IMG/VR virus record: IMGVR_UViG_3300027628_000007
Source: a virus
Lineage: Duplodnaviria > Heunggongvirae > Uroviricota > Caudoviricetes
Length of the DNA: 64,000 bases
Strand: one strand, 5' to 3'
Positions 288 to 59,147 of this stretch are shown one piece after another. The notes beneath the pieces were generated by a model. It did not search any database. It worked only from the letters and a program-made list of their open reading frames with translations, and had not been told where the DNA came from. How positions within the stretch are numbered: position 1 is the stretch's first letter; each line of letters begins with the position of its first letter. The translations under genes and the position numbers were made by a program.

Positions 288-581
288 TTATTTCTCCATT
301 TCTACAATCTCAATTTGAGTGTTATTGATAATCCATTCTCTAGATTCATCACTAACTGTATCATGCAGTACAGCTTTCTCAACTGTAGACCCTTTAACTT
401 CAAATGTAAAGTTCTGGTTGATACGCAAAACTGTAATCCTTTGGTCAATACCTCTCATCTTGTTATAAGGTATCTGACTGCCAACGATAATGGCAACGTT
501 ATGCTTAATAGCATAACGCACCATTTCTAAATCTCCATCGACTTTTTCCTTTTTACCAAATAGTCGTTTGAAGAAGTTCAT
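288..581 (-). CDS. hypothetical protein (97 aa)
   Basis: ORF track; compact minus-strand gene array; start overlaps the stop of the upstream gene. Confidence 0.6.
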   Translation of the reverse strand: MNFFKRLFGKKEKVDGDLEMVRYAIKHNVAIIVGSQIPYNKMRGIDQRITVLRINQNFTFEVKGSTVEKAVLHDTVSDESREWIINNTQIEIVEMEK

Positions 582-838
582 TATTCCACAACCTCAATAG
601 ATGGTACTAATAGATATTCAGTATTCTTTGTAACTAATTTAACTACATTTCTATGAATGAAAACATCCTCTATAGTGGATGTTTCGACAACCATTAGTGC
701 ATCTTCTACATTCACTAATTTTGCAGTGCTACCAATCAGCATTGATTCAATGAAATATCTACGTGCTTGTCGTCTTTCATTTCTAATCTCATTACCTAAT
801 CTATCATACATACCTTCAATACGATATACTAACTTCAT
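581..838 (-). CDS. hypothetical protein; start moved to the internal ATG (MKLVYR...) 5 nt after the ligase stop, preceded by GGAGAG
   Basis: The ORF-track start at 934 would overlap the ligase gene by 92 nt. The internal ATG at 838 has a good RBS. Confidence 0.5.
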   Translation of the reverse strand: MKLVYRIEGMYDRLGNEIRNERRQARRYFIESMLIGSTAKLVNVEDALMVVETSTIEDVFIHRNVVKLVTKNTEYLLVPSIEVVE

Positions 839-842
839 ACTA

Positions 843-2150
843 TCACTCTCCATAGTTAATGTCTTCAATGCCTTTATCATGTCGAATACCTTTGAATACA
901 GGGAAACGAAGTGACAGTTGACCAGTTTTCTCATCTGTTGATTCTTCGAAGAATTGTACTTCGATGATTTTTCCTACAATCTCATCTGGATTGTTGATGA
1001 ATTTTTGACGTTCATCAATTGTAAATCCACTACCACAACCTACTAAATTACCTTTATACTCAACATTAATACGACCTAGCAATCCTTCAAATTGACCGTC
1101 AATAGATTTCTCTACACTCATACATAGAAGGTCTGCTGTCTTAAATTTCTTGACTTTTAATAGACCGTCAGTACGTTTGTTGAGATATAAACCATCAGCA
1201 GTGTTGACCATTAATCCTTCATGACCGTTCTCTTCTACCCACTTCATGAAGTGTGCAATCATTTCTTTATTTGTTCCTTCATACAATACTGGTAGAATAT
1301 GGATATTAGCTTGACCTGCTACATGTTGTTCTAGCACGCCCAATTGATTTCTACGCTTCTCATATGTAAGTTTAGATTTTCCATCGTAAAACTCTGCTAC
1401 TGGTAACATATCAAAGATATGAAACTCTAAATCTTTCTTTTCACCATCTTTACGCACAACCTTTTGTGTAGCTCTGAATAGCTTATCAGATGGTAAGTTC
1501 TCTGTATTGATAAGTAAAAGCTCTCCATCATATACATATCCTTCTGGTAGATTCATAAACTGTGCTTCTAAATCAACCATGTCAAAGATTGGTTGCCCTT
1601 GACGTGTGAAGAATTTAATTGTATTGCCTTCACGAATCGCAACACATCGGTTTCCATCCAGTTTAAGAGTGATAAAGAATTTACCTGTTACTTTCGCTTC
1701 TTTCTTAGCAAATGATTCTGCTAACATTACAGCGAATGCAGGAATCGTACCTTTGCCGTAAATCTTATTTACAGTCTTTTCAGAGATTCCAAGTTTTAAA
1801 TCCTTTGTTACAAACTTCTTGATAAACTCTGCAATATGTTCTTCATGCTTATTAGCAAACTCTTGAATCATATGTATAGTAAAATCACGACCACTATTGT
1901 TTTCTTCTACATATGTAAGTAAGTGGTTAAAGTCTTGGATTGGTTGATAGTTCGCATCGCCTTTCAACACAATTTCTTTACTCATCTTCTTAGTTGAGAT
2001 ACCTGTTGTGATGAATGAATTAAGAAGGAAGTTTAGGGCTTTGAGAATATCCTCATCACCCTTATGTCGTTTTAAGATAGCTTCCTTACCTGTCTTTGCA
2101 GACGTTTCTTGTAGCTGTGAAAATACACCATAGATTTTATTGATATCCAA
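843..2150 (-). CDS. ATP-dependent DNA ligase (T4 gp30-like)
   Basis: Motif I KLDGNR (adenylation lysine), motif V EGLMVN...LLKVKK. The N-terminus INKIYGVFSQL...KEAILKRH resembles the T4 ligase N-terminus. Apparent TTG start. Confidence 0.85.
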   Translation of the reverse strand: MDINKIYGVFSQLQETSAKTGKEAILKRHKGDEDILKALNFLLNSFITTGISTKKMSKEIVLKGDANYQPIQDFNHLLTYVEENNSGRDFTIHMIQEFANKHEEHIAEFIKKFVTKDLKLGISEKTVNKIYGKGTIPAFAVMLAESFAKKEAKVTGKFFITLKLDGNRCVAIREGNTIKFFTRQGQPIFDMVDLEAQFMNLPEGYVYDGELLLINTENLPSDKLFRATQKVVRKDGEKKDLEFHIFDMLPVAEFYDGKSKLTYEKRRNQLGVLEQHVAGQANIHILPVLYEGTNKEMIAHFMKWVEENGHEGLMVNTADGLYLNKRTDGLLKVKKFKTADLLCMSVEKSIDGQFEGLLGRINVEYKGNLVGCGSGFTIDERQKFINNPDEIVGKIIEVQFFEESTDEKTGQLSLRFPVFKGIRHDKGIEDINYGE

Positions 2151-2168
2151 AATTCAATTACCCCTTTA

Positions 2169-2774
2169 TTATTTATTTCGTTTTGTTGTGATTAGTTCAT
2201 CCACTAATCCATAGTTGAATGCATCTGTTCCAGAGAAGTACCAATCAGAATGATATTTGTTTTTCTCATCCATGATATGTTTTGGAAGATTGGACACAGA
2301 TAGCAAGTACCCATCATATGTATCTTGAAGATTTTGAATCTCAACTAAATCATCTTTTAATTGAGTTAGTTTTCCATGAAGACCTGTTGCAACCTCATGG
2401 TACATGAATCGTGCCATTGGGTGAGCAAAGCGTTTGTGACCTGCTGAAAAGATTACTAATCCTGCACTCATTGCTTTGCTGTAGCAGTATGTGTAAACTG
2501 GTGTTTCAGATGAGTCAATCACTGCTGTTAATCCAAATCCGTCATATGCACTTCCACCATATGAGCTAACAGTTAAATGGATTGGCTCACGCACATAGCT
2601 AGGGTCTTCTTTCTGTTTCTTATCATCGTGGCGATTAACTGCTAGAATACCAGTGACGATATCTTTAACAGAGGATTCAGTAACATTTTCATTCAAGATG
2701 AAATCACGTTTAATCGTAGATGTTGATGCCTTTGTCTCTTGGTTTTTAGTCTCGTTATTTGTATTGTTTGTCAT
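2169..2774 (-). CDS. ClpP-family (S14) serine peptidase homolog
   Basis: GxAxSAG-type nucleophile context (KAMSAGLVIFSAG) and an MYHEV segment corresponding to the ClpP MIHQP histidine region. Confidence 0.65.
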   Translation of the reverse strand: MTNNTNNETKNQETKASTSTIKRDFILNENVTESSVKDIVTGILAVNRHDDKKQKEDPSYVREPIHLTVSSYGGSAYDGFGLTAVIDSSETPVYTYCYSKAMSAGLVIFSAGHKRFAHPMARFMYHEVATGLHGKLTQLKDDLVEIQNLQDTYDGYLLSVSNLPKHIMDEKNKYHSDWYFSGTDAFNYGLVDELITTKRNK

Positions 2775-4171: not shown

Positions 4172-5449
4172 TTATTCTGTTGCTGATTCTTCTTCTTCAA
4201 TGTCAAGGACATCATCTGCTTTAATGATACCTTCTAAGACTTTGAAGTTAAATGACTTCTGTTTGAATGCAGAGAATTTCTCTCTGTTCTCAATACGTAC
4301 AATTACACCTTCACGTAAATGTGTTTTACCGATTGGGTCTGCACCATCTACATGAGCGTTTACACGTTTCATCAAGTCATCAGCAGTTGTAAACTTAAAT
4401 GAATCTAACTCTGGGCAAATCTTAACTCCCATTTGTTCACAACGAAGTTTAACTAAGTGCCAAGGGTACTCAACAACCTGTCCATCTTCGTTCGTCATTG
4501 TCATGCGGTATACATAAATATCGCTTTGACCTACTCCACAACCGTATGTAAATCGTGTCTTATCGCCATATGTCTTGATAAACTCTTTATCTTTCGTTTT
4601 CTTATTATCGCATTCTGGCATAATAAGTGTATCTTGGTTTACATATCCTACAACTTCATAGAATACTTCTTCACCTTTATGTAATTTACCGTCAAAGAAA
4701 TCATGCCATTGCTTTCTAAACTCGTTGCTACCGTAGTAACCGCCACCAAATTGCGTAGTGTTTAAAGTCACACGTCTAGTACCTGTTACATAATCCCAAA
4801 CTTTTGTTGGCTTAGTCTTGATGCCAATCTTATTTAAGAATTTAGCAAACTTTGATTTATGCTCTTTGACTGTGTGAGCAGTACGTTGAGATGTTCCATG
4901 AAGTTTTAAAGAGATTACACAGTCATCGCCTTCTTTGAAGCTACGAGTATTGTAAGCTAGTTGAGCTGTATCAATATGCTGTTCAAAGAATGGGTAATTA
5001 ACCACATCTTCTTTCTTTTGCTTCTCTTTGTTCTTGCCTTGTGGCATATCTTTTCGTGGTTTAGACTTTGGTACATACTTCTCACAGATTACCACACCTT
5101 TTAAGATATCAATTGTGTCACCCTCTTTAAGAGTATCAATTTTGACAAACTTTGCAAGAGATGTGATTGGCATGAATAAACCATCTGATTTCTCTCCACG
5201 TAAACGGATTGTAGTTACATGACGCTTTTCGTCATCTAAGTAACCGCCTTGTGTACGAAGTAATTTGTTTTCTTCCGCATATTCTAGACCTAATTTACCG
5301 TCTGTAGGGAAGTAAACACCTAAGTCTCCTTCTTTTACATCTAAGCTAACAATTACATCGTTACCGAATAGTTCTGCAACTTGTAATCTATCTGCATTAG
5401 AATGCTTTCGTAGTTTTTTAACAGTTGTAATATAAGCTTGGTAAGCCAT
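4172..5449 (-). CDS. RNA ligase, Rnl2-like nucleotidyltransferase domain with N-terminal OB-like domain
   Basis: Motif I KLHG (the KxHG form is typical of Rnl2/RNA-editing ligases), motif III FYEVVG, motif IV EGVIVR, motif V KQKSFNFK. The window already has a separate DNA ligase. Adjacent to the Pnk-HD gene. Confidence 0.7.
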   Translation of the reverse strand: MAYQAYITTVKKLRKHSNADRLQVAELFGNDVIVSLDVKEGDLGVYFPTDGKLGLEYAEENKLLRTQGGYLDDEKRHVTTIRLRGEKSDGLFMPITSLAKFVKIDTLKEGDTIDILKGVVICEKYVPKSKPRKDMPQGKNKEKQKKEDVVNYPFFEQHIDTAQLAYNTRSFKEGDDCVISLKLHGTSQRTAHTVKEHKSKFAKFLNKIGIKTKPTKVWDYVTGTRRVTLNTTQFGGGYYGSNEFRKQWHDFFDGKLHKGEEVFYEVVGYVNQDTLIMPECDNKKTKDKEFIKTYGDKTRFTYGCGVGQSDIYVYRMTMTNEDGQVVEYPWHLVKLRCEQMGVKICPELDSFKFTTADDLMKRVNAHVDGADPIGKTHLREGVIVRIENREKFSAFKQKSFNFKVLEGIIKADDVLDIEEEESATE

Positions 5450-5502
5450 TTAACAACACTCCTTAATGTTTTTTTATTTGTTTGTTTCAACCTTATGAAT
5501 TT

Positions 5503-5531
5503 ATTATATCATTATCTTTTGCTCTTGTCTA
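5503..5531 (-). promoter_or_regulatory. sigmaA-type promoter, family copy (TAGACA-17-TGaTATAAT), upstream of RNA ligase gene
   Basis: Plus-strand text attata-tcattatcttttgctcttg-tctaca; minus strand reads -35/-10 with conserved spacer. Confidence 0.6.
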
Positions 5532-5750
5532 CAAAAAAAGAAAAGTTTTTTATTTTTCTTTTTTATTTTCTCTATCTTACGAAAATTAACCAACATAGAC
5601 CGATGGAAAATAGAGCTATTAGTGCACCGTATCCTAAGAAACATATTATAAAAAACATTACTTTAAGATACTCTTGCCACAACTCACGCATGACAATCAC
5701 CTCCCATATTTTTCTTTATTGTAGCAAAAATTGGATTAGAAGTCAATACT

Positions 5751-6620
5751 CTAATCCAATAATTTTGATAAATCTACGACACCATATCCTAAGTTATAGC
5801 TGTGGTCATGATTACCCATATTCATAATTTTCTCTTTTACTTGTGCAGGTGTTAACTCAATACCTTGATTACGGTTGTGAGAAATAAGCAATGCGATTGC
5901 TCCTGCTACTAATGGTGAAGCCATAGATGTTCCAGACATCCTAGCATACTTGCCATCTTTAAATGTGCTTAATACATCAATTGCAGGTGCAGAGATATCT
6001 ACTTGTGGTGCTCTATTAGAGAATGGACAATGATTTAAATCTTTGTCAACTCCACCTACTGCAAATACTTCATCCATAAATGCAGGATAATCCACTTCTG
6101 GCAATCCCATATTTCCTACTGCACATACAATCTTAATTCCTTGTGCATGAGCTTCTTCTAATCGTTCTTGAAGTCGTACTGGAAGACCTCCACGAACGCC
6201 TAGACTCATACATAATACATCTACTTTGAAGTTGATAGCTAATGTAATTCCATCCATAACACTCGCCATACTGCCTTCGCCTTTTTCGTCTAATACTTTT
6301 GCAATATATAAATCAACATTAGGTGCAACGCCTGTCTTCGCACCTGCAATTAATCCTGCAACATGAGTTCCATGACCATACTCATCTGTGATATCATTTG
6401 TTTTTTCAAACATATTTATACCGTACTTGACTTTTCCTTTTAGGTCTGGATGGTTCTCATCCATTCCAGTATCAATCACCATAACTTTAACGCCTTCGCC
6501 TTTTGTTTTCTTCCAAGCTTCTTTGACGTTAATAGCTTTTAAACTCCAATCAAGCCCTTTGGGTAATTTATCCAATACTTCAATATTCTTAGTTTCATTT
6601 TGTGTCATCATATGTTGCAC
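5751..6620 (-). CDS. subtilisin-like serine protease (peptidase S8)
   Basis: Catalytic triad contexts VIDTGMD (Asp), HGTHVAG (His), GTSMASP (Ser). Confidence 0.9.
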   Translation of the reverse strand: MQHMMTQNETKNIEVLDKLPKGLDWSLKAINVKEAWKKTKGEGVKVMVIDTGMDENHPDLKGKVKYGINMFEKTNDITDEYGHGTHVAGLIAGAKTGVAPNVDLYIAKVLDEKGEGSMASVMDGITLAINFKVDVLCMSLGVRGGLPVRLQERLEEAHAQGIKIVCAVGNMGLPEVDYPAFMDEVFAVGGVDKDLNHCPFSNRAPQVDISAPAIDVLSTFKDGKYARMSGTSMASPLVAGAIALLISHNRNQGIELTPAQVKEKIMNMGNHDHSYNLGYGVVDLSKLLD

Positions 6621-6624
6621 ACTC

Positions 6625-6900
6625 CTATTTGCTTTCTTTGATTGTTACAGTTCCTTCCATAACTCCATATGTACTATCTTCTTTAAACTTATAAGTCTCT
6701 GCTTTATCTTGTTCTGTCATTGGACGTGTAAGATACCAAAGAGCAGATTCTTTCCATGTGATATTAACTAGCTTTTCACCTTTAGGGAGATTGACTGTGT
6801 AACTTCCACCAAAACTCTTCGCTCCTATTTGACATCCAGAAAGACCTACTAAACCTGCAATTGCTGTTAATCCGATTAAAAACTTTTTCATCATAATCAC
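6625..6900 (-). CDS. lipoprotein (signal peptide with lipobox LSGC)
   Basis: MIMMKKFLIGLTAIAGLVGLSGC: hydrophobic h-region followed by Cys. Confidence 0.7.
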   Translation of the reverse strand: MIMMKKFLIGLTAIAGLVGLSGCQIGAKSFGGSYTVNLPKGEKLVNITWKESALWYLTRPMTEQDKAETYKFKEDSTYGVMEGTVTIKESK

Positions 6901-7523
6901 TCCTTATCAGTATCTAGCGGTGCTAGTAATTTAAATTCACTCTTTAAACTATTGTAAATTGGTTGGAAGAATTTCTTAATTGTATCCCAATCCTTCATAG
7001 CCATAACACTTCCTAAGAAACGGTTTGCACATTCGTAATCTACGATTCTACCATGCTTTGCAATTTGAATCCCAAACATCAAGATTCTGATTGAATGAAA
7101 CATGCTCTTTTTGCCGATATAATCTTCACCAATCGCTAATTTCTTTTTACATTTAACAAAACTGTTAGAAGAAATCCCAGAGATATTTCTACGTAATGCT
7201 TCTAGATTTGGTTCAAAATGCTCACGATATTTACTATCTTCTTTTTGGAAGATACATTCTAGGTAGCTAATATGTTGCTCTTTAATCTTCTTAATAAACA
7301 GTGCTTCGCTTACTACGTGAATAGAGACATCATCACGCTCAAACGTATAATCAAGTTCTAGGTCATGACTGTCTGCAACAGCCATGAAATCATAATCTGA
7401 ATCCGCATTGTCAGTTCCGTAGACCCTAGAGCCATACGGATAGATTGCCAATAGTTTTTCATTAATGTTTCTTTTTGTTTCCCACATGTTATCACTCCTA
7501 TAGTTGACCCATTGCGTAGTCAT
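6897..7523 (-). CDS. minimal nucleotidyltransferase (Pol-beta superfamily, MNT-like)
   Basis: hGS...G...SDYDF motif (IYPYGSRVYGTDNADSDYDFMAV). Confidence 0.65.
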   Translation of the reverse strand: MTTQWVNYRSDNMWETKRNINEKLLAIYPYGSRVYGTDNADSDYDFMAVADSHDLELDYTFERDDVSIHVVSEALFIKKIKEQHISYLECIFQKEDSKYREHFEPNLEALRRNISGISSNSFVKCKKKLAIGEDYIGKKSMFHSIRILMFGIQIAKHGRIVDYECANRFLGSVMAMKDWDTIKKFFQPIYNSLKSEFKLLAPLDTDKE

Positions 7524-27421: not shown

Positions 27422-28026
27422 TATGCTGTTTCCTCCTGTTTACGTAGTTCATCTCGTACTTCCATTAACACTTGACCTAATAGGTTCATGCCTTTCCACT
27501 TCTTAGGGTCTTCTACGTCTGGATGGTCTTTATGCATACCGATTCCCCAGATTCTATCAGAAGGGCTTGCTTCCACAAGCATCTTATTACCTGTTGCAAG
27601 AATACATTTTTTCAAGAATGGTACAGAGAATTTATCCATTAACACTTCTTTGTAGATTCTCTTACGATTCTTCTGCCAAACATCTTCCTTGAATGGAATG
27701 TCATTGCTACGACCTAATAGCTTACAGTAACTTGGTGTATCGGCTTCTAAAATATCTTTTGCAACGTCTGTCGCACCAAATAACATAGCTTTACGATACA
27801 TTACCGCCTGCTCTGACCATAAGAATCGTATGCCTTGATGCCTGAATGGTGAGAAGTTAAAGTTTGAGTACACGCTGTCACCCATCCAGAAGAAGATAAA
27901 CTTATCAGTTTCTCTTGCATTCTGTCCAAGACCTCTTTTAACTCTACCGATTTTCGCATCAGTTTCACGCTTTTGCTTCAAGAATCGTTCTTGGTCTGCT
28001 TTTGTTAATTTAGGTTTCTCTCTCAT
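27421..28026 (-). CDS. NADAR (YbiA/DUF1768) domain protein - ADP-ribose processing N-glycosidase
   Basis: Collinear match to E. coli YbiA: FFW..G..SNF...PF......F...E...M.KA.LF......IL....P...K.LGR.......W......EV...KF.....LL.TG...LVE.SP.D..WG.G. Confidence 0.8.
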   Translation of the reverse strand: MREKPKLTKADQERFLKQKRETDAKIGRVKRGLGQNARETDKFIFFWMGDSVYSNFNFSPFRHQGIRFLWSEQAVMYRKAMLFGATDVAKDILEADTPSYCKLLGRSNDIPFKEDVWQKNRKRIYKEVLMDKFSVPFLKKCILATGNKMLVEASPSDRIWGIGMHKDHPDVEDPKKWKGMNLLGQVLMEVRDELRKQEETA

Positions 28027-28027
28027 G

Positions 28028-28495
28028 TTAACCTCCTAGTAATGATAATAGTCTAGTAATGTCTTTTGGTTGATGCCCATCATATTCTGGTGCAAATTCT
28101 AATTCTTTCACTTTAAATAAATCATAATCTTCTTCTCTGTAATGATATGAATACTGACCTTCTGGTGTATCGACTCCAACAATAAATGACCCATCAAACA
28201 TTGTGCCATCTGAATGTTGCCAAGACTTCCATGCTTTGTCTTTGTATGTATGACAGATTACTAAGAATAACATCATGCGATGATAATACAGTTCATCAAA
28301 AGTGTGATAGCCATCGCTAAACTCTCCAACTCTCATAACTAAATCAGCAGGAATATGATTATGTGTTCCGTCTAAAGTAACGGTTGAAACATCTTTTCTA
28401 GACCCAAAATTTTCAACATCTGTCTTAGTTATCTTATATATTGTTGGTAAATCTGATTTGAAAATAACCTTGTTGCCTGCTTTAAATTTACTCAT
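28028..28495 (-). CDS. hypothetical protein
   Basis: ORF track. Confidence 0.6.
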   Translation of the reverse strand: MSKFKAGNKVIFKSDLPTIYKITKTDVENFGSRKDVSTVTLDGTHNHIPADLVMRVGEFSDGYHTFDELYYHRMMLFLVICHTYKDKAWKSWQHSDGTMFDGSFIVGVDTPEGQYSYHYREEDYDLFKVKELEFAPEYDGHQPKDITRLLSLLGG

Positions 28496-32204: not shown

Positions 32205-32784
32205 ATGTATCTTCCTCCTTTGGAAATTTAATATTTCTTAACGTATGTGGTATAACCAACTTCTTACCAATCTGTTCAAGTCTTATGTAGCCCTTCCTAG
32301 CAAGCGACTCTAGCATTCTCATTACTGTATCTCTATTCTTTATCTTGATACCATCTGCTAGAGCATCAATGTCAGTAGTAGTTTTCCAATAACCAACATC
32401 TGAATGCATTACTATGAAAGCGTATAGCTTGTATTCCTTCTTAGTCATTGTATCATTATCTTTTACTTTTGTCCACAACTCTTCTAAAATAAAATTGAAA
32501 TTATCACTTCTTTTTTCCATCACGTTATACCTCGGACTATATTTATTTATGAGATAGAGTTCATAGACTTTCATTTCGCTCTCACTTTGCAACTCCATGT
32601 ATTCTACGACTGCACACTCATCATAGCACTCTCTAGGAAGGTGACCTTCCTTAGAGAAGTGCTCTTGCTCTAGTCTTCGTTTCAGATTGTTAGTTCTGCC
32701 TATGTATATAATATCATTATGTTTATCTAGAAATCTGTAGACATAGAAACTATTCTTCGTCAATCTCTTCCAACAACTTCTCAA
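32188..32784 (-). CDS. GIY-YIG homing endonuclease-like protein with C-terminal winged-helix
   Basis: FYVYRFLDKHNDIIYIGRTNNLKRRLEQH (GIY...YIG...R...E/QH) and YELYLINKYSPRYN. Start approximate. Confidence 0.8.
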   Translation of the reverse strand: MRSCWKRLTKNSFYVYRFLDKHNDIIYIGRTNNLKRRLEQEHFSKEGHLPRECYDECAVVEYMELQSESEMKVYELYLINKYSPRYNVMEKRSDNFNFILEELWTKVKDNDTMTKKEYKLYAFIVMHSDVGYWKTTTDIDALADGIKIKNRDTVMRMLESLARKGYIRLEQIGKKLVIPHTLRNIKFPKEEDTYETGY

Positions 32785-34409: not shown

Positions 34410-34868
34410 TTAGAGTTTGTATAATGTTACTTCATAACCGTCAAAAGCTTTGTCTATTAACTTATAAACCTCTGTCCAATCCGCTCCACCTCTATCACTA
34501 CCAATTAGGTATGGAAGTGCAACAGATAAGGCATATGATTCTGCAAAATCTCTTAAATCCTTCATAGCTTTATAGAGAGCCATTGTCTTTGTGTATTGAT
34601 TCCCATCTCCACCATATGTAAGCTGACCAAAAAGATTTGCAACCACCTTGCCATCCATCAGTACAAGATGACATTTCCCTAACAATTCTGTCCTAGAGTT
34701 CTCTTTCACAAAGTTTGTCACATATTCAACATAAGTTGTATAGGCTTCTGGGAAGGATTGGCGTATGCATTTCGCAACGCCACTTCCCATAACACCCATC
34801 GCATTCACTTGATGACCAATGACATCCTCACTGGCTTCCATTAAATCTCCATTAACAATCTTAATCAC
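34410..34868 (-). CDS. macrodomain protein, DarG/TARG1-like (ADP-ribosyl hydrolase)
   Basis: N-terminal IVNGDLMEASEDVIGHQVNAMGVMGSGVAKCIRQSFP follows the GD...aH.vN..G..G.GvA pattern of DarG/TARG1-type macrodomains. Confidence 0.7.
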   Translation of the reverse strand: MIKIVNGDLMEASEDVIGHQVNAMGVMGSGVAKCIRQSFPEAYTTYVEYVTNFVKENSRTELLGKCHLVLMDGKVVANLFGQLTYGGDGNQYTKTMALYKAMKDLRDFAESYALSVALPYLIGSDRGGADWTEVYKLIDKAFDGYEVTLYKL

Positions 34869-35902: not shown

Positions 35903-36111
35903 TTAACATCATCCTTTTCTTTCTCTTTTTTCTCTCTTCTACGATTCTTCCAACCTTCAAACTTATGGAAGCTCTTAGGATGGATTGTCTCCCAGAATAA
36001 CCCAACTAATCCAAGGGCTACTCGTAATAATGCTAGAATAATAATAACTGCAATCATCCATCCTACTAGTTTTGCAAGCATCCACAATGTTGTTAAGACT
36101 GCTGTTGTCAT
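35899..36111 (-). CDS. small membrane protein with basic C-terminus
   Basis: TM helices then KNRRREKKEKEKDDVK. Confidence 0.55.
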   Translation of the reverse strand: MTTAVLTTLWMLAKLVGWMIAVIIILALLRVALGLVGLFWETIHPKSFHKFEGWKNRRREKKEKEKDDVK

Positions 36112-36872
36112 TTAAGTGTTCCTCCTTTTGTGATTATCTTAATGTTTTCCATCACTTCTTCCATATCAATTTGATAATCAAACATACCAATTACTTCTTG
36201 GGCTGTTCGAATACCATGTAAGTATTCCTTAATCTCTGCAATCTGTCTCTTATGCTCTGCAACAAATTCATGATGCTGTTTAATCTTAATCAAGTGTGGC
36301 ATAATAGTTGTCTTGGCAGAATGAAAGAATCGTGCATGTTCTGGATATCTTTTACGACATGCTTTGAAGAATGGCAGGAAGAATTTCTCTGTTTCCAATG
36401 CCTGTCTCAATTCTTTCTCTGGCGTTGCATCTTTTAATGTGCCAAAATTATTCTTTCTATCTACTGTTTTAATTTTAGCCATTCGGACATTTTGCAGTAT
36501 GATGTCTAAGTACGCCTGCATATTCTCTTCTTTCTTGTAGTCGATGTTTGGCAACTTTGTTACTCCCATTACTGTATCAGCAACCTCTTGACCAAACAGA
36601 CTTTTAACAGCTTCATAGTTGATGTCTGGGACATCTTCGATTGCATCATGCAGTATACATGCGGTCAAAGTTACTTCATCGGTTTCACCATGATTAATTA
36701 AATCCTGTGTTGCATCTACCAAGTGATAGTAATAGTGACGACCATCATGTCGTTTATATCCGTTATCAGCGTTCATAACTGATATCATCCAATTAAGAGC
36801 TTTTAACGCTTCTTTACAACCCATCTCTGCTAAATCCATTTGCAACTGTACTACACGACTTTCTTTCGCCAT
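36108..36872 (-). CDS. RelA/SpoT-family HD hydrolase (small alarmone hydrolase, Mesh1-like)
   Basis: HD-domain motifs RHDGRHYYYHL..., ILHDAIEDV, and FGQEVADTVMGVTKL, as in the SpoT (p)ppGpp hydrolase domain. No synthetase domain. Confidence 0.8.
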   Translation of the reverse strand: MAKESRVVQLQMDLAEMGCKEALKALNWMISVMNADNGYKRHDGRHYYYHLVDATQDLINHGETDEVTLTACILHDAIEDVPDINYEAVKSLFGQEVADTVMGVTKLPNIDYKKEENMQAYLDIILQNVRMAKIKTVDRKNNFGTLKDATPEKELRQALETEKFFLPFFKACRKRYPEHARFFHSAKTTIMPHLIKIKQHHEFVAEHKRQIAEIKEYLHGIRTAQEVIGMFDYQIDMEEVMENIKIITKGGTLK

Positions 36873-55207: not shown

Positions 55208-55633
55208 TTAATTCTCCCCTTCGTTTACAAATTTTACAATCGTTCTACCTTCGTGACCATGAATATGCTGTACTGCATTGATATTAGGATAGATATTATG
55301 AGATGTCACATATGATTCAGACCACTCATGAATACATTTTCCACTTGGCATAATGACTCCCTGTGCTACGATTCCAGTACCGCTAACACCACTAAAGTCT
55401 TCATTGCGTTGCAGATAGTATTCTCGTAATCTCTCTTTGCATTTAGGCTTTAATGGAATTAATTTAGTATCCTTACTTTCGTTGCAGACAAATTCTTTTA
55501 CCTGTTCGATGTTATCATAGAATGATAGTGTTTTGATTGCACTAGACCACTCTAACAGCGTTACATTTGATTTAAGTGTGATACCTCTTGCTAGAACCTT
55601 ATCGTGTTTGTCAATGATTTTAAATTGCTCCAT
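55208..55633 (-). CDS. hypothetical protein
   Basis: ORF track. Confidence 0.6.
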   Translation of the reverse strand: MEQFKIIDKHDKVLARGITLKSNVTLLEWSSAIKTLSFYDNIEQVKEFVCNESKDTKLIPLKPKCKERLREYYLQRNEDFSGVSGTGIVAQGVIMPSGKCIHEWSESYVTSHNIYPNINAVQHIHGHEGRTIVKFVNEGEN

Positions 55634-56279: not shown

Positions 56280-56308
56280 ATTATAATCTGCTGTCAAAGG
56301 ATTGTCAA
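56280..56308 (-). promoter_or_regulatory. sigmaA-type promoter TTGACA-17-TATAAT with second TGTCAA and ATCTGCTGTCAAAGGAT element in spacer
   Basis: attata atctgctgtcaaaggat tgtcaa. Confidence 0.55.
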
Positions 56309-56363
56309 GTAAATTTAGGAGGGATTTTTCAATCCCTCTATATATTAACCATCCCTTGGCTAT

Positions 56364-56392
56364 AATATACCATTATCTTTTCTCTATGTCAA
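56364..56392 (-). promoter_or_regulatory. sigmaA-type promoter (TTGACA-17-TATATT) at end of nadR
   Basis: Family spacer. Confidence 0.55.
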
Positions 56393-57412
56393 CAAGTTAT
56401 CGACATAATTTATTGCTTTTGTAATTCTTTCGTTGTAATTGCCTTTAATCGTTATGTATTGGACACCCATGTATCTTAACATATACTTTAAATCATCATT
56501 GTTCTGCTCACGCACATGTTGCTCACCGAATGTCCTAGTGCCATCGTCAACCCATTTTACATCTGGCTCTAGGAAAATCCATAGGTCATACTTTTGATTG
56601 TTTGCAATACGTGTTAGAAGTGCATCTCGCTCATTTAAATATGCTTTTAAATAGTATTGCGTAACAATCGCTTCTGTGTCAACAAAGAGCACTTTGTTAG
56701 CATTCTTTAAAGCATTAAATTCATCTACCTTATGTTGGTATGCAATGAGCTGATAATCTTCTGCCATTGTAATGTCTTTACATCCACCTAATTCCTCATA
56801 GAATGTGCGACCATATTCTTCTACGTAATTAGTATTATACAATGTTGCTAGATTTTTGACAAGTGTTGATTTGCCACAAGATTCTGTTCCTACAATAACT
56901 ACTTTTTTAACATAATATCGTCTTACTACTTCTGGTAGAAGCTCCCAATTTTTATAGACACCTTCTGTACGAAGCTTTGTAGCGGATATTGTATACTTTT
57001 CACGATTCGCATCGACTACGACATGTTCTGCATCTGGGTATAACACATTGAAAAACTCTGTGTAAGCATGTTCGGAAGAGAATACGTGAGTGATAGGTTC
57101 ACCCACAGCTTTCTTAATCCCTTCCGCACCTTGCTTCCAACTCTCAATCTTGCCTGTATTCTCTTCGTATACAGCGTGTACATGTACATGGGGCATATCC
57201 TTTGTAATTTCCGTCCACCATCTTACACGTTGTTTATGGTCAACATGTGGAAGGAAACTATCTTTACTAAGCACGTTCTTCTCATAATTCTCATCATATG
57301 AAACTATTACATGTAGCTCATCAACCATTGTTGATGCCATTGTCATTGCAAACACATGACCCATATGTATTGGATAAAACTTTCCACCTAAAAATCCTAC
57401 TGTTTTTGACAT
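56384..57412 (-). CDS. nadR: NadR-like bifunctional NMN adenylyltransferase / ribosylnicotinamide kinase
   Basis: N-terminal GGKFYPIHMGHV (HxGH nucleotidyltransferase, near-identical to the NadR NMNAT motif GKFYPLHTGH); C-terminal Walker A GTESCGKSTL (RNK domain). Confidence 0.85.
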   Translation of the reverse strand: MSKTVGFLGGKFYPIHMGHVFAMTMASTMVDELHVIVSYDENYEKNVLSKDSFLPHVDHKQRVRWWTEITKDMPHVHVHAVYEENTGKIESWKQGAEGIKKAVGEPITHVFSSEHAYTEFFNVLYPDAEHVVVDANREKYTISATKLRTEGVYKNWELLPEVVRRYYVKKVVIVGTESCGKSTLVKNLATLYNTNYVEEYGRTFYEELGGCKDITMAEDYQLIAYQHKVDEFNALKNANKVLFVDTEAIVTQYYLKAYLNERDALLTRIANNQKYDLWIFLEPDVKWVDDGTRTFGEQHVREQNNDDLKYMLRYMGVQYITIKGNYNERITKAINYVDNLLT

Positions 57413-57912
57413 TTCTCTTCCCTCTTTCTTTTATCTTCATGCATTTTTCTAGTATTATCTGCTAAAGTTAACCATTGACAATTGCTAGGCTCATAATCTC
57501 CATCTGCATCAATTCTGTCAATAGACAATCCTTCCTCATATCCATTTTCTATAGCCCATTTGTAAAATGGTTCAAATTTCTGCCATTCATCGCAAACCTT
57601 AATTCCCCTGCCACCATATCGTTCATATCCTGTTATGGTAGGAGTGCTACATCGACCTTTCATTGTAGCCCATAGCTTATAGATTTTAGTCCCATCCATA
57701 CCATGTTTCTTATTTTGTTTACCTATCTTGCTTAGATTTTCTTTTCTTAGGCAACCGCAAGATTGTTGTTTCCCTGTCCTTACATTTCTATATGCAACAT
57801 CCTTTTCGTTACCGCAATCGCACTTGACTCGTACATATCGTTCTTTCTTTCTAACATCTAAAATCTCTATGACAGTTAATCTATTGAATCTGTCACCAAT
57901 TTTTGCTCCCAA
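57397..57912 (-). CDS. homing-endonuclease-like (HNH/AP2-associated) phage protein
   Basis: N-terminal GDRFNRLTVIE...CDCGN...SCGC and C-terminal GLSIDRIDADGDYEPSNCQWLT motifs common in phage HNH/AP2-type HEG proteins. Confidence 0.45.
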   Translation of the reverse strand: MGAKIGDRFNRLTVIEILDVRKKERYVRVKCDCGNEKDVAYRNVRTGKQQSCGCLRKENLSKIGKQNKKHGMDGTKIYKLWATMKGRCSTPTITGYERYGGRGIKVCDEWQKFEPFYKWAIENGYEEGLSIDRIDADGDYEPSNCQWLTLADNTRKMHEDKRKREEKCQKQ

Positions 57913-58653
57913 TTACGCCACCTCATTTTGTTCTTTCGCATTTTTCGACCATTTGATGTAACCATAGATACTGTTGCATAAGTACGCACACCACATAACT
58001 AATACTGTAACATTTCCTCCATCATGCATGAAAGCGTTAAACCATAGAATGATAGTTAAAGTGTTTACTGCAATCCATAACAACCATTGTTCTGCATATC
58101 GTTTAAGCATTAAAAGTTGAGCTGTAATTGATAATGTTACTGCGAATCCATCAATACCTGCTTGCTTACTGCCAATCATATGTAAGAATACACCGTACAA
58201 GATTCCAACCGTTAAAACTGTTAATGCTACGTATAACCAACCTTTTTTTGTTAACTTCTTAGCTTTTACTACTGTATCATTTTCTGTTACTGACTTATTC
58301 TTGCTCCAAACATAGAATCCAATAAATTGCATTGGGAAGTATAAGAAAGCATTTAGCATAAACTCACCATATAGCTGTGCACTGTAAGCTATGTAAGCGT
58401 ATAACGCTGTGTTGATTGCCCCAAAGAAGTAGTTTCCTATTTTTCCTTTGGCTACGAGAACTACGCACAACATACCAGTTAGAGAAGATGCTAGTCCGAT
58501 TAATGTATCATCGAATGCAAAGTACATATAGATAATAAGTGCTGTGAATGATGTTAACCATGTTAATTCGAATGCTGACCAACCTTTTAATAGTGTTTTC
58601 ATAATAATTTCCACCTTTACGTTATTTTTTAAAAAACATGAATATAATTTCAA
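57913..58653 (-). CDS. pnuC: PnuC nicotinamide riboside transporter
   Basis: About 245 aa with 7-8 TM helices and Trp-rich motifs (YFPMQFIGFYVWSKN) typical of PnuC; same operon as nadR. Confidence 0.75.
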   Translation of the reverse strand: MKLYSCFLKNNVKVEIIMKTLLKGWSAFELTWLTSFTALIIYMYFAFDDTLIGLASSLTGMLCVVLVAKGKIGNYFFGAINTALYAYIAYSAQLYGEFMLNAFLYFPMQFIGFYVWSKNKSVTENDTVVKAKKLTKKGWLYVALTVLTVGILYGVFLHMIGSKQAGIDGFAVTLSITAQLLMLKRYAEQWLLWIAVNTLTIILWFNAFMHDGGNVTVLVMWCAYLCNSIYGYIKWSKNAKEQNEVA

Positions 58654-58857
58654 GCATTATACAGAAGATGTCGGCAATTCCTGCAAATATTTCTCCCCAA
58701 CCAGAGGAATCTTTCTTCTTCTTAGTAATCGTAATCACCCTTTCGAAGCTTCTCTTTCACTTTCTTGCGGTCATTCTTCTTCTTTTTCTTTTCATCTGCC
58801 ACAGTTGGTGGTGGCATGACCCCTCTTGATTGAGTCATGACACCAATTGTTTTCTTC

Positions 58858-59118: not shown

Positions 59119-59147
59119 ATTATATGGTTATCTTTTGTTTTTGTCAA
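59119..59147 (-). promoter_or_regulatory. sigmaA-type promoter, perfect TTGACA-17-TATAAT
   Basis: attata tggttatcttttgtttt tgtcaa. Confidence 0.7.

What the first reader, a model, noticed from the sequence alone, without database searches (positions are those of the whole stretch)
56384..58653. NadR + PnuC NAD+ salvage operon split by a homing-endonuclease-like gene
Gene 56384..57412 carries a NadR-type NMNAT motif (GGKFYPIHMGHV) followed by a ribosylnicotinamide-kinase P-loop. Gene 57913..58653 is a PnuC-type nicotinamide riboside transporter. Together they convert imported nicotinamide riboside to NMN and then to NAD+. Several bacterial immune systems (Thoeris, DSR, SIR2/SEFIR-type, some CBASS/Avs effectors) kill by depleting NAD+. 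Known phage counter-measures rebuild NAD+ through other routes (ADPR-PP or Nampt/Nmnat). A NadR/PnuC route would be a distinct NAD+ reconstitution strategy. The HEG-like ORF (57397..57912) inserted exactly between the two genes, overlapping nadR's 3-prime end, suggests the module is a target of selfish-element invasion.
Basis: partly seen in the sequence, partly recalled or inferred. Interest (0 to 1): 0.7.

Follow-up and report, generated by a model that had tools for sequence, protein, structure and literature searches.

The report
Phage NAD+ salvage operon, endonuclease insert
A large Bacillus cereus-group phage carries a two-gene module that imports nicotinamide riboside and turns it into NAD+, a phage counter-defence published in 2026 as NARP3, here interrupted by a mobile nuclease-like gene, so this is a new member of a known system rather than a new strategy.

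Summary
On the minus strand the genes run pnuC (57913..58602), a 171-aa HEG-like ORF (57397..57912), then nadR (56384..57412).

NadR lacks the HTH domain and has intact NMNAT and kinase motifs. Its best solved relative is Bas30_86, the NARP3 enzyme (38% identity, E=5e-65). PnuC is 45% identical to the crystallised NR transporter 4QTN.

The proposed "distinct NAD+ reconstitution route" was predicted in 2024 and demonstrated in 2026 as NARP3 in E. coli phages. All 15 related Bacillus phages in the database encode adjacent homologues of both genes, annotated in most records.

The insertion is exact: 500 nt between a TAA and an ATG that overlap (TAATG) in Kirov and Thrax1. Diverged homologues occupy the same junction in Izhevsk (already annotated as a homing endonuclease) and Thrax2. 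pW2 holds a decayed remnant.

The inserted gene has no Pfam model. Its family has an invariant Arg where HNH enzymes have the catalytic His, and its closest nuclease fold match is PacI, a His-less enzyme that uses Tyr.

The same genome also encodes NARP1 just outside the window.

Verdict: correct interpretation, ordinary novelty; a Gram-positive NARP3-type member with reversed gene order.

The parts
57913..58602 (-). pnuC: nicotinamide riboside transporter, 229 aa. The mechanical ORF extends to a TTG at 58653, but that is not the real start.
   Evidence: PF04973 E=2.8e-46; TIGR01528 169.8 bits against a cut-off of 42.45; phrog_1880 E=3e-74. 4QTN E=8.3e-57 at 45% identity. Q92 and N180 match Bas30_87 Q94 and N180. 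The ATG and Shine-Dalgarno are conserved in 8 genomes.
58611..58618 (-). Shine-Dalgarno AAAGGTGG for pnuC
   Evidence: The AAAGG core is conserved across relatives.
57397..57912 (-). Inserted free-standing HEG-like gene, 171 aa. It starts at a TTG directly after the pnuC stop, and its stop codon lies 16 nt inside nadR.
   Evidence: phrog_374 E=1.7e-58, with no Pfam or NCBIfam hit. Absent at this site in Kirov and Thrax1. Homologues occupy the same junction in Izhevsk (61% identity) and Thrax2 (42%).
57739..57891 (-). HEG-like N-terminal module: a small beta-barrel plus a CxC...CGC zinc ribbon (aa 8-58), probably for DNA binding
57403..57528 (-). HEG-like C-terminal beta-beta-alpha element (aa 129-170) with the D132-R133...Y140...N144...N153 motif
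57918..57924 (-). Shine-Dalgarno GAGGTGG inside the pnuC 3' end. It serves nadR in HEG-less Kirov and Thrax1, and sits in front of the HEG TTG here.
57415..57425 (-). Replacement Shine-Dalgarno-like AGAGGGAAGAG for nadR, supplied by the 3' end of the HEG-like gene
56384..57412 (-). nadR: HTH-less bifunctional NMN adenylyltransferase / ribosylnicotinamide kinase, 342 aa
   Evidence: NF005988 241.6 bits (cut-off 201), model positions 63-406 of 411; phrog_3462 E=3.6e-120. PDB hits: 9X6F (Bas30_86) E=5e-65, E. coli NadR 8X7F 1.2e-52, H. influenzae 1LW7 1e-48.
56918..57406 (-). NMNAT domain of NadR (about aa 3-165), with HxGH H16-H19 and ISATKLR 142-148
   Evidence: The equivalents of Bas30_86 K10, F11, S37, E80, F110 and S112 are conserved.
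56426..56905 (-). Ribosylnicotinamide kinase (P-loop) domain of NadR (aa 170-329), with Walker A GTESCGKS
   Evidence: AAA_28 E=1.2e-37. E231 and D276 match Bas30_86 E230 and D275, both of which are required for function.
56318..56339 (-). GC-rich hairpin AGAGGGATT-GAAA-AATCCCTCC 45 nt after the nadR stop. It is a likely operon end, but weak as an intrinsic terminator because there is no long T-run.
   Evidence: RNAfold. Not picked up by the terminator scan.
56280..56308 (-). Perfect sigma-A type promoter (TTGACA-17-TATAAT) that starts the next transcription unit. It marks the downstream boundary of the module.

Best explanation
The locus is a NARP3-type NAD+ reconstitution module of a large Bacillus cereus-group siphophage related to Kirov.

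Proposed mechanism: PnuC takes up nicotinamide riboside. The kinase domain of the HTH-less NadR phosphorylates it to NMN, and the NMNAT domain adenylates NMN to NAD+. This replenishes NAD+ in infected cells, most plausibly to outrun NAD+-depleting defences.

The ancestral arrangement had pnuC and nadR translationally coupled through an overlapping TAATG. A free-standing mobile gene of a very large HNH-derived family has since been inserted precisely between them. The insert took over the old nadR ribosome-binding site and supplies a new one from its own 3' end, so the operon should still work.

The inserted protein has a zinc-ribbon/barrel DNA-binding module and a beta-beta-alpha nuclease-like module. 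In that module Arg replaces the canonical His. An invariant loop Tyr may do the chemistry, as in PacI.

Shown: the sequence homology, the intact motifs, the exact insertion boundaries, and the presence/absence/decay pattern across relatives.

Inferred: the enzyme and transport activities, the counter-defence role in Bacillus, and the nuclease activity and homing of the insert.
For: NadR:
- The best solved relative is Bas30_86 (9X6F/9X6H), full length, 38% identity, E=5e-65.
- All three residues validated by single mutants (F110, E230, D275) are conserved, and 10 of 16 named residues are identical.
- HxGH, ISxTxxR and Walker A are intact.
- The HTH domain is absent, as in Bas30_86.

PnuC:
- It passes the TIGR01528 equivalog model fourfold above its cut-off.
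- It is 45% identical to 4QTN, and Q92 and N180 are conserved.

Precedent and conservation:
- NARP3 restores NAD+ and rescues phage from Sir2-HerA.
- The module is conserved in 15 Bacillus phages.

Insertion:
- TAATG in Kirov and Thrax1 versus a 500-nt insert here.
- Homologues at the same junction in Izhevsk and Thrax2, and a decayed remnant in pW2.
- The family occurs in 989 phage records, often in several copies per record.

Nuclease-like domain:
- I-HmuI profile hit at E=0.0012.
- PacI uses Tyr in place of His, and Y140 is invariant in this family.

Context:
- The same genome carries NARP1 (Namat E=3e-205 to 9W5W), an Acb5-like gene, NADAR and macro genes.
Against: - No experiment exists for this phage or for any Gram-positive NARP3-type module. 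Even the published NARP3 was not tested in its native phage.
- TIGR01526 scores 236.7, below its 341.15 cut-off.
- 4 of 16 named Bas30_86 residues differ: P84G, G89S, D115A and V139Y.
- PnuC has Gly where Bas30_87 has N45.
- Gene order is reversed relative to T5-like NARP3.
- NARP3 needs external nicotinamide riboside, and its availability in soil or in the host environment is unknown.
- The HEG-like protein has no Pfam HNH hit even at E<=5.
- There is no paralogue of the insert in the window.
- The window copy lacks the first N-terminal module present in Izhevsk and Thrax2, so it could be partly degenerate.
- No convincing co-conversion tract was found.
Confidence: 0.75

Rival explanations
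1. The module is a general auxiliary metabolic module. It raises NAD+ supply for phage replication and host metabolism during infection of a 169-kb genome, independent of any immune NAD+ depletion, as was proposed for KVP40 and for the 'Tyroviruses'.
For: The Thrax and Izhevsk papers interpret these genes as nucleotide or NAD metabolism genes that reduce dependence on the host. The phage encodes many nucleotide-metabolism enzymes. No defence phenotype has been tested.
Against: The phage's DNA ligase is ATP-dependent, so there is no obvious large NAD+ sink. The homologous module acts as a counter-defence. The genome also carries NARP1, an Acb5-like gene, NADAR and macro genes, which looks like an anti-defence repertoire. 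The two roles are not mutually exclusive.
Confidence: 0.2
2. The inserted ORF is not a nuclease or a homing element. It is a catalytically dead, HNH-derived DNA-binding protein, either a regulator or another kind of moron, that happens to vary between genomes.
For: The canonical general-base His is replaced by Arg in 257 of 258 domains. There is no Pfam HNH hit. His-Me finger groups that lack His can be inactive DNA binders, such as Smad MH1. Strong conservation indicates selection for some function.
Against: The metal-ligand equivalents D132 and N153 are retained, along with an invariant loop Tyr as in active PacI. The site shows a presence/absence/decay pattern and three different sub-positions. 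The family is dispersed and multi-copy across about 989 phage records. All of this is typical of mobile endonuclease genes.
Confidence: 0.2
3. NadR works mainly through its NMNAT domain, together with the phage's NAMPT-like enzyme, in a NARP2-like nicotinamide-to-NMN-to-NAD+ route. PnuC and the kinase domain would be accessory.
For: Iyer et al. 2022 note that NadR can co-occur with NadV-like enzymes in phage genomes. The source genome encodes a 578-aa NAMPT_N/NAPRTase protein.
Against: That protein is a very close relative of SPbetaL1 Namat (E=3e-205) and sits near a PRPS-like gene, which is the NARP1 signature. Namat prefers ADPR-PP over PRPP. The kinase domain's Walker A, E231 and D276 are intact, and pnuC is tightly linked to nadR in all 15 relatives.
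Confidence: 0.08

Closest known systems
NARP3 (Bas30_86 NadR-like enzyme + Bas30_87 PnuC-like transporter; Yan et al., Sci Adv 2026, PMC13464706)
   Same: A two-gene phage cassette of a PnuC-family NR transporter and an HTH-less NMNAT-RNK NadR. Bas30_86 is the window NadR's best solved relative (E=5e-65). The key catalytic residues are conserved, and the predicted chemistry is the same: NR to NMN to NAD+.
   Different: - The host is Gram-positive (B. cereus group), whereas NARP3 was described for Enterobacteriaceae phages.
- Gene order is pnuC then nadR, not nadR then pnuC.
- Identity to the T5-like phage proteins is only 38% for NadR (Bas30_86) and 36% for PnuC (measured against Bas27_0093, the Bas30_87 homologue of phage TrudiGerster). 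PnuC is closer to bacterial 4QTN at 45%.
- A mobile gene is inserted between the two genes.
- It coexists with NARP1 in the same genome.
- It is untested.
Bacterial NR salvage by PnuC and NadR (H. influenzae 1LW7, E. coli 8X7F, N. mucosa PnuC 4QTN)
   Same: The same protein families, motifs and two-step chemistry.
   Different: There is no HTH regulatory domain. The genes are adjacent and phage-encoded, whereas in E. coli they sit at separate loci. A scan of 185,579 species genomes found no close bacterial relative. L. lactis NadR is much more distant (90 bits).
Bacillus phage Izhevsk ORF59-ORF62 (PnuC, mini-ORF, 'putative HNH homing endonuclease', NadR; Skorynina et al. 2020, PMC7685451)
   Same: The same clade and the same operon, with a homologous HEG-like gene (61% identity) directly upstream of nadR. 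That paper already inferred its homing endonucleases, as a class, from absence at the same positions in Tsamsa and pW2.
   Different: The window copy is shorter (171 versus 231 aa, lacking the first zinc-ribbon module). There is no miniprotein gene at the window's junction. It is only 61% identical, so it is a diverged allele or a separate acquisition.
[quoted passage not shown]
   Same: A beta-beta-alpha element whose Asp and Asn align with the D74 and N96 of I-HmuI, plus zinc-binding cysteines. There is no His general base, but there is a loop Tyr as in PacI. The gene sits between genes, with presence/absence polymorphism as for the T4 seg and mob genes.
NARP1 (Adps + Namat) and NARP2 (Nampt + Nmnat), Osterman et al. 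2024
   Same: The same goal of rebuilding NAD+ during infection. NARP1 is encoded in the same phage genome, about 2-6 kb beyond the window start.
   Different: The substrate differs: external NR rather than ADPR plus nicotinamide or PRPP. The enzymes are unrelated, and a transporter is needed.

Membership tests
NARP3 (phage PnuC + NadR NAD+ reconstitution pathway) | PnuC-family nicotinamide riboside transporter | tested here: met
   TIGR01528 169.8 bits against a cut-off of 42.45; PF04973 E=2.8e-46; 4QTN E=8.3e-57
NARP3 (phage PnuC + NadR NAD+ reconstitution pathway) | HTH-less NadR-type enzyme with both NMNAT and RNK domains | tested here: met
   NF005988 241.6 bits over model positions 63-406 of 411; full-length alignment to Bas30_86 (9X6F) at E=5e-65
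NARP3 (phage PnuC + NadR NAD+ reconstitution pathway) | Catalytic and substrate residues shown by mutagenesis to be required in Bas30_86 | tested here: met
   The equivalents of F110, E230 and D275 are conserved (F111, E231, D276). 10 of 16 named residues are identical and 2 are conservative; P84G, G89S, D115A and V139Y differ.
NARP3 (phage PnuC + NadR NAD+ reconstitution pathway) | NR-binding residues of the transporter (Bas30_87 N45, Q94, N180) | tested here: inconclusive
   Q92 and N180 are conserved. The N45 position is Gly43, the same as in the bona fide N. mucosa PnuC.
NARP3 (phage PnuC + NadR NAD+ reconstitution pathway) | The two genes are adjacent and co-oriented in a phage genome | tested here: met
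   Same strand, but the order is reversed relative to Bas27/Bas30 and the genes are separated by a 500-nt insert. They are directly coupled (TAATG) in Kirov and Thrax1.
NARP3 (phage PnuC + NadR NAD+ reconstitution pathway) | Restores NAD+ and rescues phage from NAD+-depleting defence in an NR-dependent way | not testable with these tools
   Needs infection assays and NAD+ measurements.
NadR, NMN adenylyltransferase equivalog domain (TIGR01526) | Score at or above the curated cut-off | tested here: not met
   236.7 bits against a cut-off of 341.15. The broader NadR equivalog NF005988 is passed.
HNH (His-Me finger) homing endonuclease | Recognisable HNH domain by a curated model | tested here: not met
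   No Pfam or NCBIfam hit, even at E<=5. Only the PHROG label supports it.
HNH (His-Me finger) homing endonuclease | General-base His at the end of beta-strand 1 | tested here: not met
   Arg133 aligns with I-HmuI His75. Arg is invariant in 61 sequences and present in 257 of 258 domains from diverse representatives.
HNH (His-Me finger) homing endonuclease | Metal-ligand Asp and Asn, and the structural Asn | tested here: met
   D132, N144 and N153 align with I-HmuI D74, N87 and N96. The N96 position is Gln or Asn in 262 of 270 domains.
HNH (His-Me finger) homing endonuclease | Beta-beta-alpha-metal fold | tested here: inconclusive
HNH (His-Me finger) homing endonuclease | Presence/absence polymorphism at the same site among close relatives | tested here: met
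   Empty in Kirov and Thrax1; occupied in the window, Izhevsk and Thrax2; decayed remnant in pW2.
HNH (His-Me finger) homing endonuclease | Cleaves or nicks the insert-less allele and is copied into it | not testable with these tools
   Needs biochemistry and phage crosses.
PacI-like His-less beta-beta-alpha-Me nucleases (group 20 of Jablonska et al. 2017) | His absent; a Tyr in the omega-loop acts in catalysis; zinc-stabilised fold | tested here: inconclusive

The most novel reading that the evidence does not exclude
Large Bacillus cereus-group phages may stack two independent NAD+ rebuilding routes, alongside an Acb5-like cGAMP nuclease, NADAR and macro proteins. NARP1 recycles the defence products, and a NARP3-type module draws on external nicotinamide riboside. 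The NR route would act as a bypass when defences destroy or modify the products NARP1 needs.

Separately, the pnuC-nadR junction may be a recurrent homing site for a huge, uncharacterised family with no Pfam model (about 196,000 clusters at 50% identity). In this family Arg replaces the His-Me finger's catalytic His. That implies either PacI-like Tyr-based chemistry or a mobility mechanism that does not depend on the protein's own nuclease activity.
Probability: 0.3. Interest if true: 0.5.

Novelty: new member of a known kind. Interest (0 to 1): 0.3.

Why it matters
NARP3 has so far been demonstrated only by heterologous expression in Gram-negative hosts, and not in its native phage. This locus and its 15 relatives would extend NARP3 to Gram-positive hosts, in the genus (Bacillus) from which, to my recollection, Thoeris and DSR-type NAD+-depleting defences were first described; that point was not checked here. 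That would give a natural system for asking three questions:
- Does NR-dependent NAD+ rebuilding matter in real infections?
- Why do some phages carry both NARP1 and NARP3?
- How is operon function preserved when a mobile gene lands between translationally coupled genes?

The inserted gene also flags a very large nuclease-like family whose routine "HNH endonuclease" annotation is not backed by the canonical catalytic residue.

Tried and rejected
- **Riboswitch or other known RNA.** An Rfam scan of the whole window at gathering thresholds found nothing, so there is no NAD+-II (pnuC-motif) riboswitch or other known RNA upstream of pnuC.
- **Paralogues of the insert.** tblastn against the window found none.
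- **Bacterial relatives of NadR.** The genome-contig scan found no close bacterial relative.
- **Co-conversion or immunity tract.** The first 36 nt of nadR are 72% identical to Kirov against an 87% gene mean, but other stretches fall to 67%, so this is not an outlier.
- **Promoter upstream of pnuC.** The extended -10 TGTATAAT at 58656..58663 is not conserved, and in Kirov it lies within a likely mini-ORF. I rejected it as an established promoter. The promoter scan as a whole was no better than shuffled sequence (16 sites against 15.7 expected).
- **NAD+ needed for an NAD-dependent DNA ligase.** Rejected, because the phage ligase is ATP-dependent.
- **Acb5 in the local Pfam copy.** The scan did not reproduce the precomputed Acb5 hit.
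- **Literature search on motif strings (IDRID and similar).** It returned only noise.
- **PacI structure paper.** It is not held in the library.
Full report
**What is there.**
All genes in this part of the window lie on the minus strand. The transcription order is pnuC, then a 171-aa ORF, then nadR.

NadR (56384..57412, 342 aa):
- Pfam AAA_28 (E=1.2e-37) and CTP_transf_like (E=4e-7).
- The NCBIfam NadR equivalog NF005988 at 241.6 bits, above its 201-bit cut-off. The match covers model positions 63-406 of 411, so the N-terminal HTH domain is missing.
- PHROG 3462 at E=3.6e-120.
- It falls below the cut-off of the narrower model TIGR01526 (236.7 against 341.15).
- The HxGH motif (H16-H19), ISATKLR, Walker A GTESCGKS and VLFVDT are all intact.

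PnuC:
- It passes TIGR01528 at 169.8 bits against a cut-off of 42.45.
- Its real start is ATG 58602, not the TTG at 58653. The ATG and its AAAGGTGG ribosome-binding site are conserved in eight genomes, and independent gene calls give 229 aa.

**Which genome.**
The closest deposited genome is Bacillus phage Kirov, at 89.5% nucleotide identity over this locus. Thrax1 and PBC2 follow. Contigs with the identical locus, 169,228 and 169,314 bp long, occur in ENA metagenome assemblies. The window therefore comes from a large B. cereus-group siphophage of the 'Tyrovirus' group (Andregratiavirinae and Joanripponvirinae) that is not itself in the phage collection.

**Function of the two flanking genes.**
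NadR:
- Its best match among solved structures is 9X6F/9X6H (E=5e-65, full length, 38% identity). It ranks ahead of E. coli NadR (1.2e-52), H. influenzae NadR (1e-48) and L. lactis NadR (1e-24).
- 9X6F and 9X6H are Bas30_86, the enzyme of the NARP3 pathway.
- Yan et al. named 16 Bas30_86 residues. Ten are identical here and two are conservative.
- The three that were validated as single mutants (F110, E230, D275) are all conserved, as F111, E231 and D276.

PnuC:
- It is 45% identical to the crystallised N. mucosa NR transporter 4QTN, and 36% identical to the T5-like phage transporter.
- It keeps two of the three NR-binding residues of Bas30_87 (Q92, N180). At the third it has Gly, exactly as 4QTN does.

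The predicted chemistry is therefore well supported by homology: NR import, then NR to NMN, then NMN to NAD+. Nothing has been tested in this phage.

**This is already known.**
- Iyer et al. 2022 described NadR as a phage NAD+ synthesis enzyme.
- Osterman et al. 2024 explicitly proposed that the phage NadR-PnuC operon is a further NAD+ reconstitution pathway.
- Yan et al. (Science Advances, August 2026) named it NARP3. They showed NR transport, both enzyme steps, crystal structures, and NR-dependent restoration of NAD+ and phage growth against Sir2-HerA.
- NadR homologues occur in 409 phage records, 24 of them Bacillus phage records representing 15 phages.
- The Izhevsk and Thrax papers already list the PnuC and NadR genes of this clade.

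Three things differ here:
- The host is Gram-positive, whereas NARP3 was described as an Enterobacteriaceae-phage system.
- Gene order is pnuC then nadR, the reverse of the T5-like phages.
- The transporter is closer to bacterial PnuC than to the T5-like one. This hints that the module was assembled independently, though I did not test that with a phylogeny.

**The insertion.**
In Kirov and Thrax1 the pnuC stop and the nadR start overlap as TAATG. In the window, exactly 500 nt sit between that TAA and that ATG.

The old nadR ribosome-binding site (GAGGTGG, inside the pnuC 3' end) now precedes the insert's TTG start. The insert's own 3' end provides a new site (AGAGGGAAGAG) for nadR, and its stop codon lies 16 nt inside nadR.

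I surveyed the junction in 16 genomes:
- It is empty in two.
- It holds only one or two single-pass membrane miniprotein genes, of three types, in ten.
- In pW2 it holds a miniprotein gene plus a 219-nt stretch that matches the N-terminus of the Izhevsk protein (34% identity, E=3e-7), where the longest ORF is only 31 aa, so it is evidently broken. This looks like a decayed copy.
- It holds a homologue of the inserted gene in three: the window (alone), Izhevsk (after a miniprotein, 61% identity) and Thrax2 (before two miniproteins, 42% identity).

Empty, occupied and decaying states at one site fit the life cycle of a homing element. The Izhevsk authors assigned their nine putative homing endonucleases on the same logic (absence at the same positions in Tsamsa and pW2), and the GenBank record gives that label to the copy at this junction. 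I found no clear co-conversion tract.

**What the inserted protein is.**
Its 'HNH endonuclease' label rests on PHROGs alone. Pfam and NCBIfam give nothing, even at lenient thresholds.

The family is very large. There are at least 7,954 hits in one database, 196,051 representatives of 50%-identity clusters at E<=1e-3, and hits in 989 phage records, often several per genome.

A confident model (pLDDT 93.6) shows three parts: a small N-terminal barrel with a CxC...CGC zinc ribbon, a helical middle, and a C-terminal beta-beta-alpha element.

A profile of the family hits the true HNH homing endonuclease I-HmuI at a borderline E=0.0012. The alignment runs exactly over the HNH motif:
- D132 aligns with D74.
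- N144 aligns with N87.
- N153 aligns with N96.
- Arg133 aligns with His75, the His of I-HmuI's DH pair. By my recollection of the I-HmuI literature (not checked here), His75 is the catalytic general base and D74 and N96 bind the metal.

Arg at that position is invariant in my 61-sequence alignment. It is present in 257 of 258 domains from diverse representatives, and His never occurs there.

PacI is the known case of a His-Me finger enzyme without the His. A Tyr in the loop between the strands takes its place, and Asp and Asn bind the metal. This family has an invariant Tyr140 in that same loop.

My reading is that this is an HNH-derived, PacI-like nuclease module. I could not superpose the residues, the scores are low, and no member has been assayed as far as I could find. 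A catalytically dead DNA-binding protein remains a live alternative. The window's copy also lacks the first zinc-ribbon module present in the Izhevsk and Thrax2 copies.

**Context.**
- The phage's DNA ligase is ATP-dependent. This removes one obvious non-immune reason to need extra NAD+.
- About 2-6 kb beyond the window's start, the same genome encodes a PRPS-like protein and a 578-aa protein that matches SPbetaL1 Namat (9W5W/9W5X) at E=3e-205. That is a NARP1 pair.
- Inside the window there are a NADAR protein, a macro-domain protein and an HD-type SpoT-like protein.
- The 141-aa gene two positions downstream of nadR has a precomputed Pfam hit to Acb5, a cGAMP-cleaving anti-CBASS enzyme family. 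My local Pfam copy did not reproduce this hit.

This repertoire favours a counter-defence role over plain metabolic support. The two roles are not exclusive.

**Expression signals.**
- No Rfam family, including the NAD+ riboswitches, matches anywhere in the window.
- A hairpin follows nadR (56318..56339), and a perfect sigma-A promoter for the next unit lies at 56280..56308.
- The promoter that drives pnuC is not established. The nearest perfect consensus promoter upstream is at 59119..59147, and an extended -10 just upstream of pnuC is not conserved.

**Verdict.**
I rate this a new member of a known kind, of modest interest. The points worth carrying forward are:
- the Gram-positive setting with reversed gene order;
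- co-occurrence of NARP1 and a NARP3-type module in one genome;
- the recurrent use of this junction by a very large family whose 'HNH' annotation lacks the canonical catalytic His.

Noticed in passing
window 55208..55633 (-): The 141-aa gene two positions downstream of nadR has a precomputed Pfam hit to PF26761 Acb5, the anti-CBASS 5 family that cleaves 3'3'-cGAMP (family described in bioRxiv 10.1101/2025.07.12.664507). The local Pfam copy gave no hit.
   Followed up: partly
L019 3909..4805 and 5432..7168 (source contig, about 2-6 kb beyond window position 1): The same phage genome encodes a PRPS-like 298-aa protein and a 578-aa NAMPT_N/NAPRTase protein. The second matches SPbetaL1 Namat (9W5W/9W5X) at E=3e-205, so this is a NARP1 pair alongside the NARP3-type module. 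The Namat homologue is about 80 aa longer than the crystallised protein and aligns in two stretches.
   Followed up: partly
window 27424..28029, 34413..34868, 36111..36872 (all -): A NADAR-domain protein (135 bits), a macro-domain protein (22.1 bits, just at the cut-off) and an HD_4 SpoT-like protein. These are further ADP-ribose or nucleotide-signal related genes in the same genome arm.
   Followed up: partly
window 32209..32760 (-): A GIY-YIG endonuclease gene (E=5.7e-14), a second candidate free-standing homing endonuclease. It is also present in Kirov at 89% identity.
   Followed up: no
L003 (PBC2), L008-L017, L004, L005: the pnuC-nadR junction: Most relatives carry one or two genes for 35-45-aa single-pass membrane miniproteins between pnuC and nadR. 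There are three sequence types, for example METLKILGISVLGGIIGFVFGFIFTTGLITILDKIFG. The 36-aa one in PBC2 is unannotated and has TAATG overlaps at both ends. The window and Kirov have none. Their function is unknown; they might be accessory to the transporter.
   Followed up: partly
L015 (pW2), about 2136..2357: A decayed remnant of the HEG-like gene directly after pnuC. It matches Izhevsk protein residues 1-75 at 34% identity (E=3e-7); the longest ORF there is only 31 aa, so it appears to be interrupted. It is not annotated.
   Followed up: yes
window 58622..58729 (-): The stretch just upstream of pnuC corresponds to an unannotated 35-aa hydrophobic mini-ORF in Kirov (MSKKKKESSGFGEIFAGIADILCMILELVFMFFKK). 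In the window its ATG is ATT, so it may not be expressed. Thrax1 and PBC2 have a different small hydrophobic ORF there.
   Followed up: no
family of window 57397..57912 (alignment A1; proteins P0001-P0268): The family has about 196,000 clusters at 50% identity and no Pfam model. Members carry up to 11 repeats of the N-terminal zinc-ribbon module. The conserved motif is D-R...Y...N...Q/N rather than H-N-H.
   Followed up: partly
L004 (Izhevsk), L005 (Thrax2), L017 (C30-3): the nadR 5' end: These three NadR proteins read GGKFAIPHMGH or GGKFAGVVHMGH in place of the usual GGKFYPxHxGH. Two of the three carry the HEG-like insert. This could be a target-site variant or ordinary divergence.
   Followed up: no
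window 59119..59147 and 56280..56308 (-): Two perfect 12-of-12 sigma-A type promoters (TTGACA-17-TATAAT) bracket the region. Overall, though, the promoter scan found no more sites than in shuffled sequence.
   Followed up: no
L014 (Sophrita) 538..1266: Another member of the same HEG-like family (annotated HNH endonuclease gp66) sits three genes upstream of pnuC rather than between pnuC and nadR.
   Followed up: no
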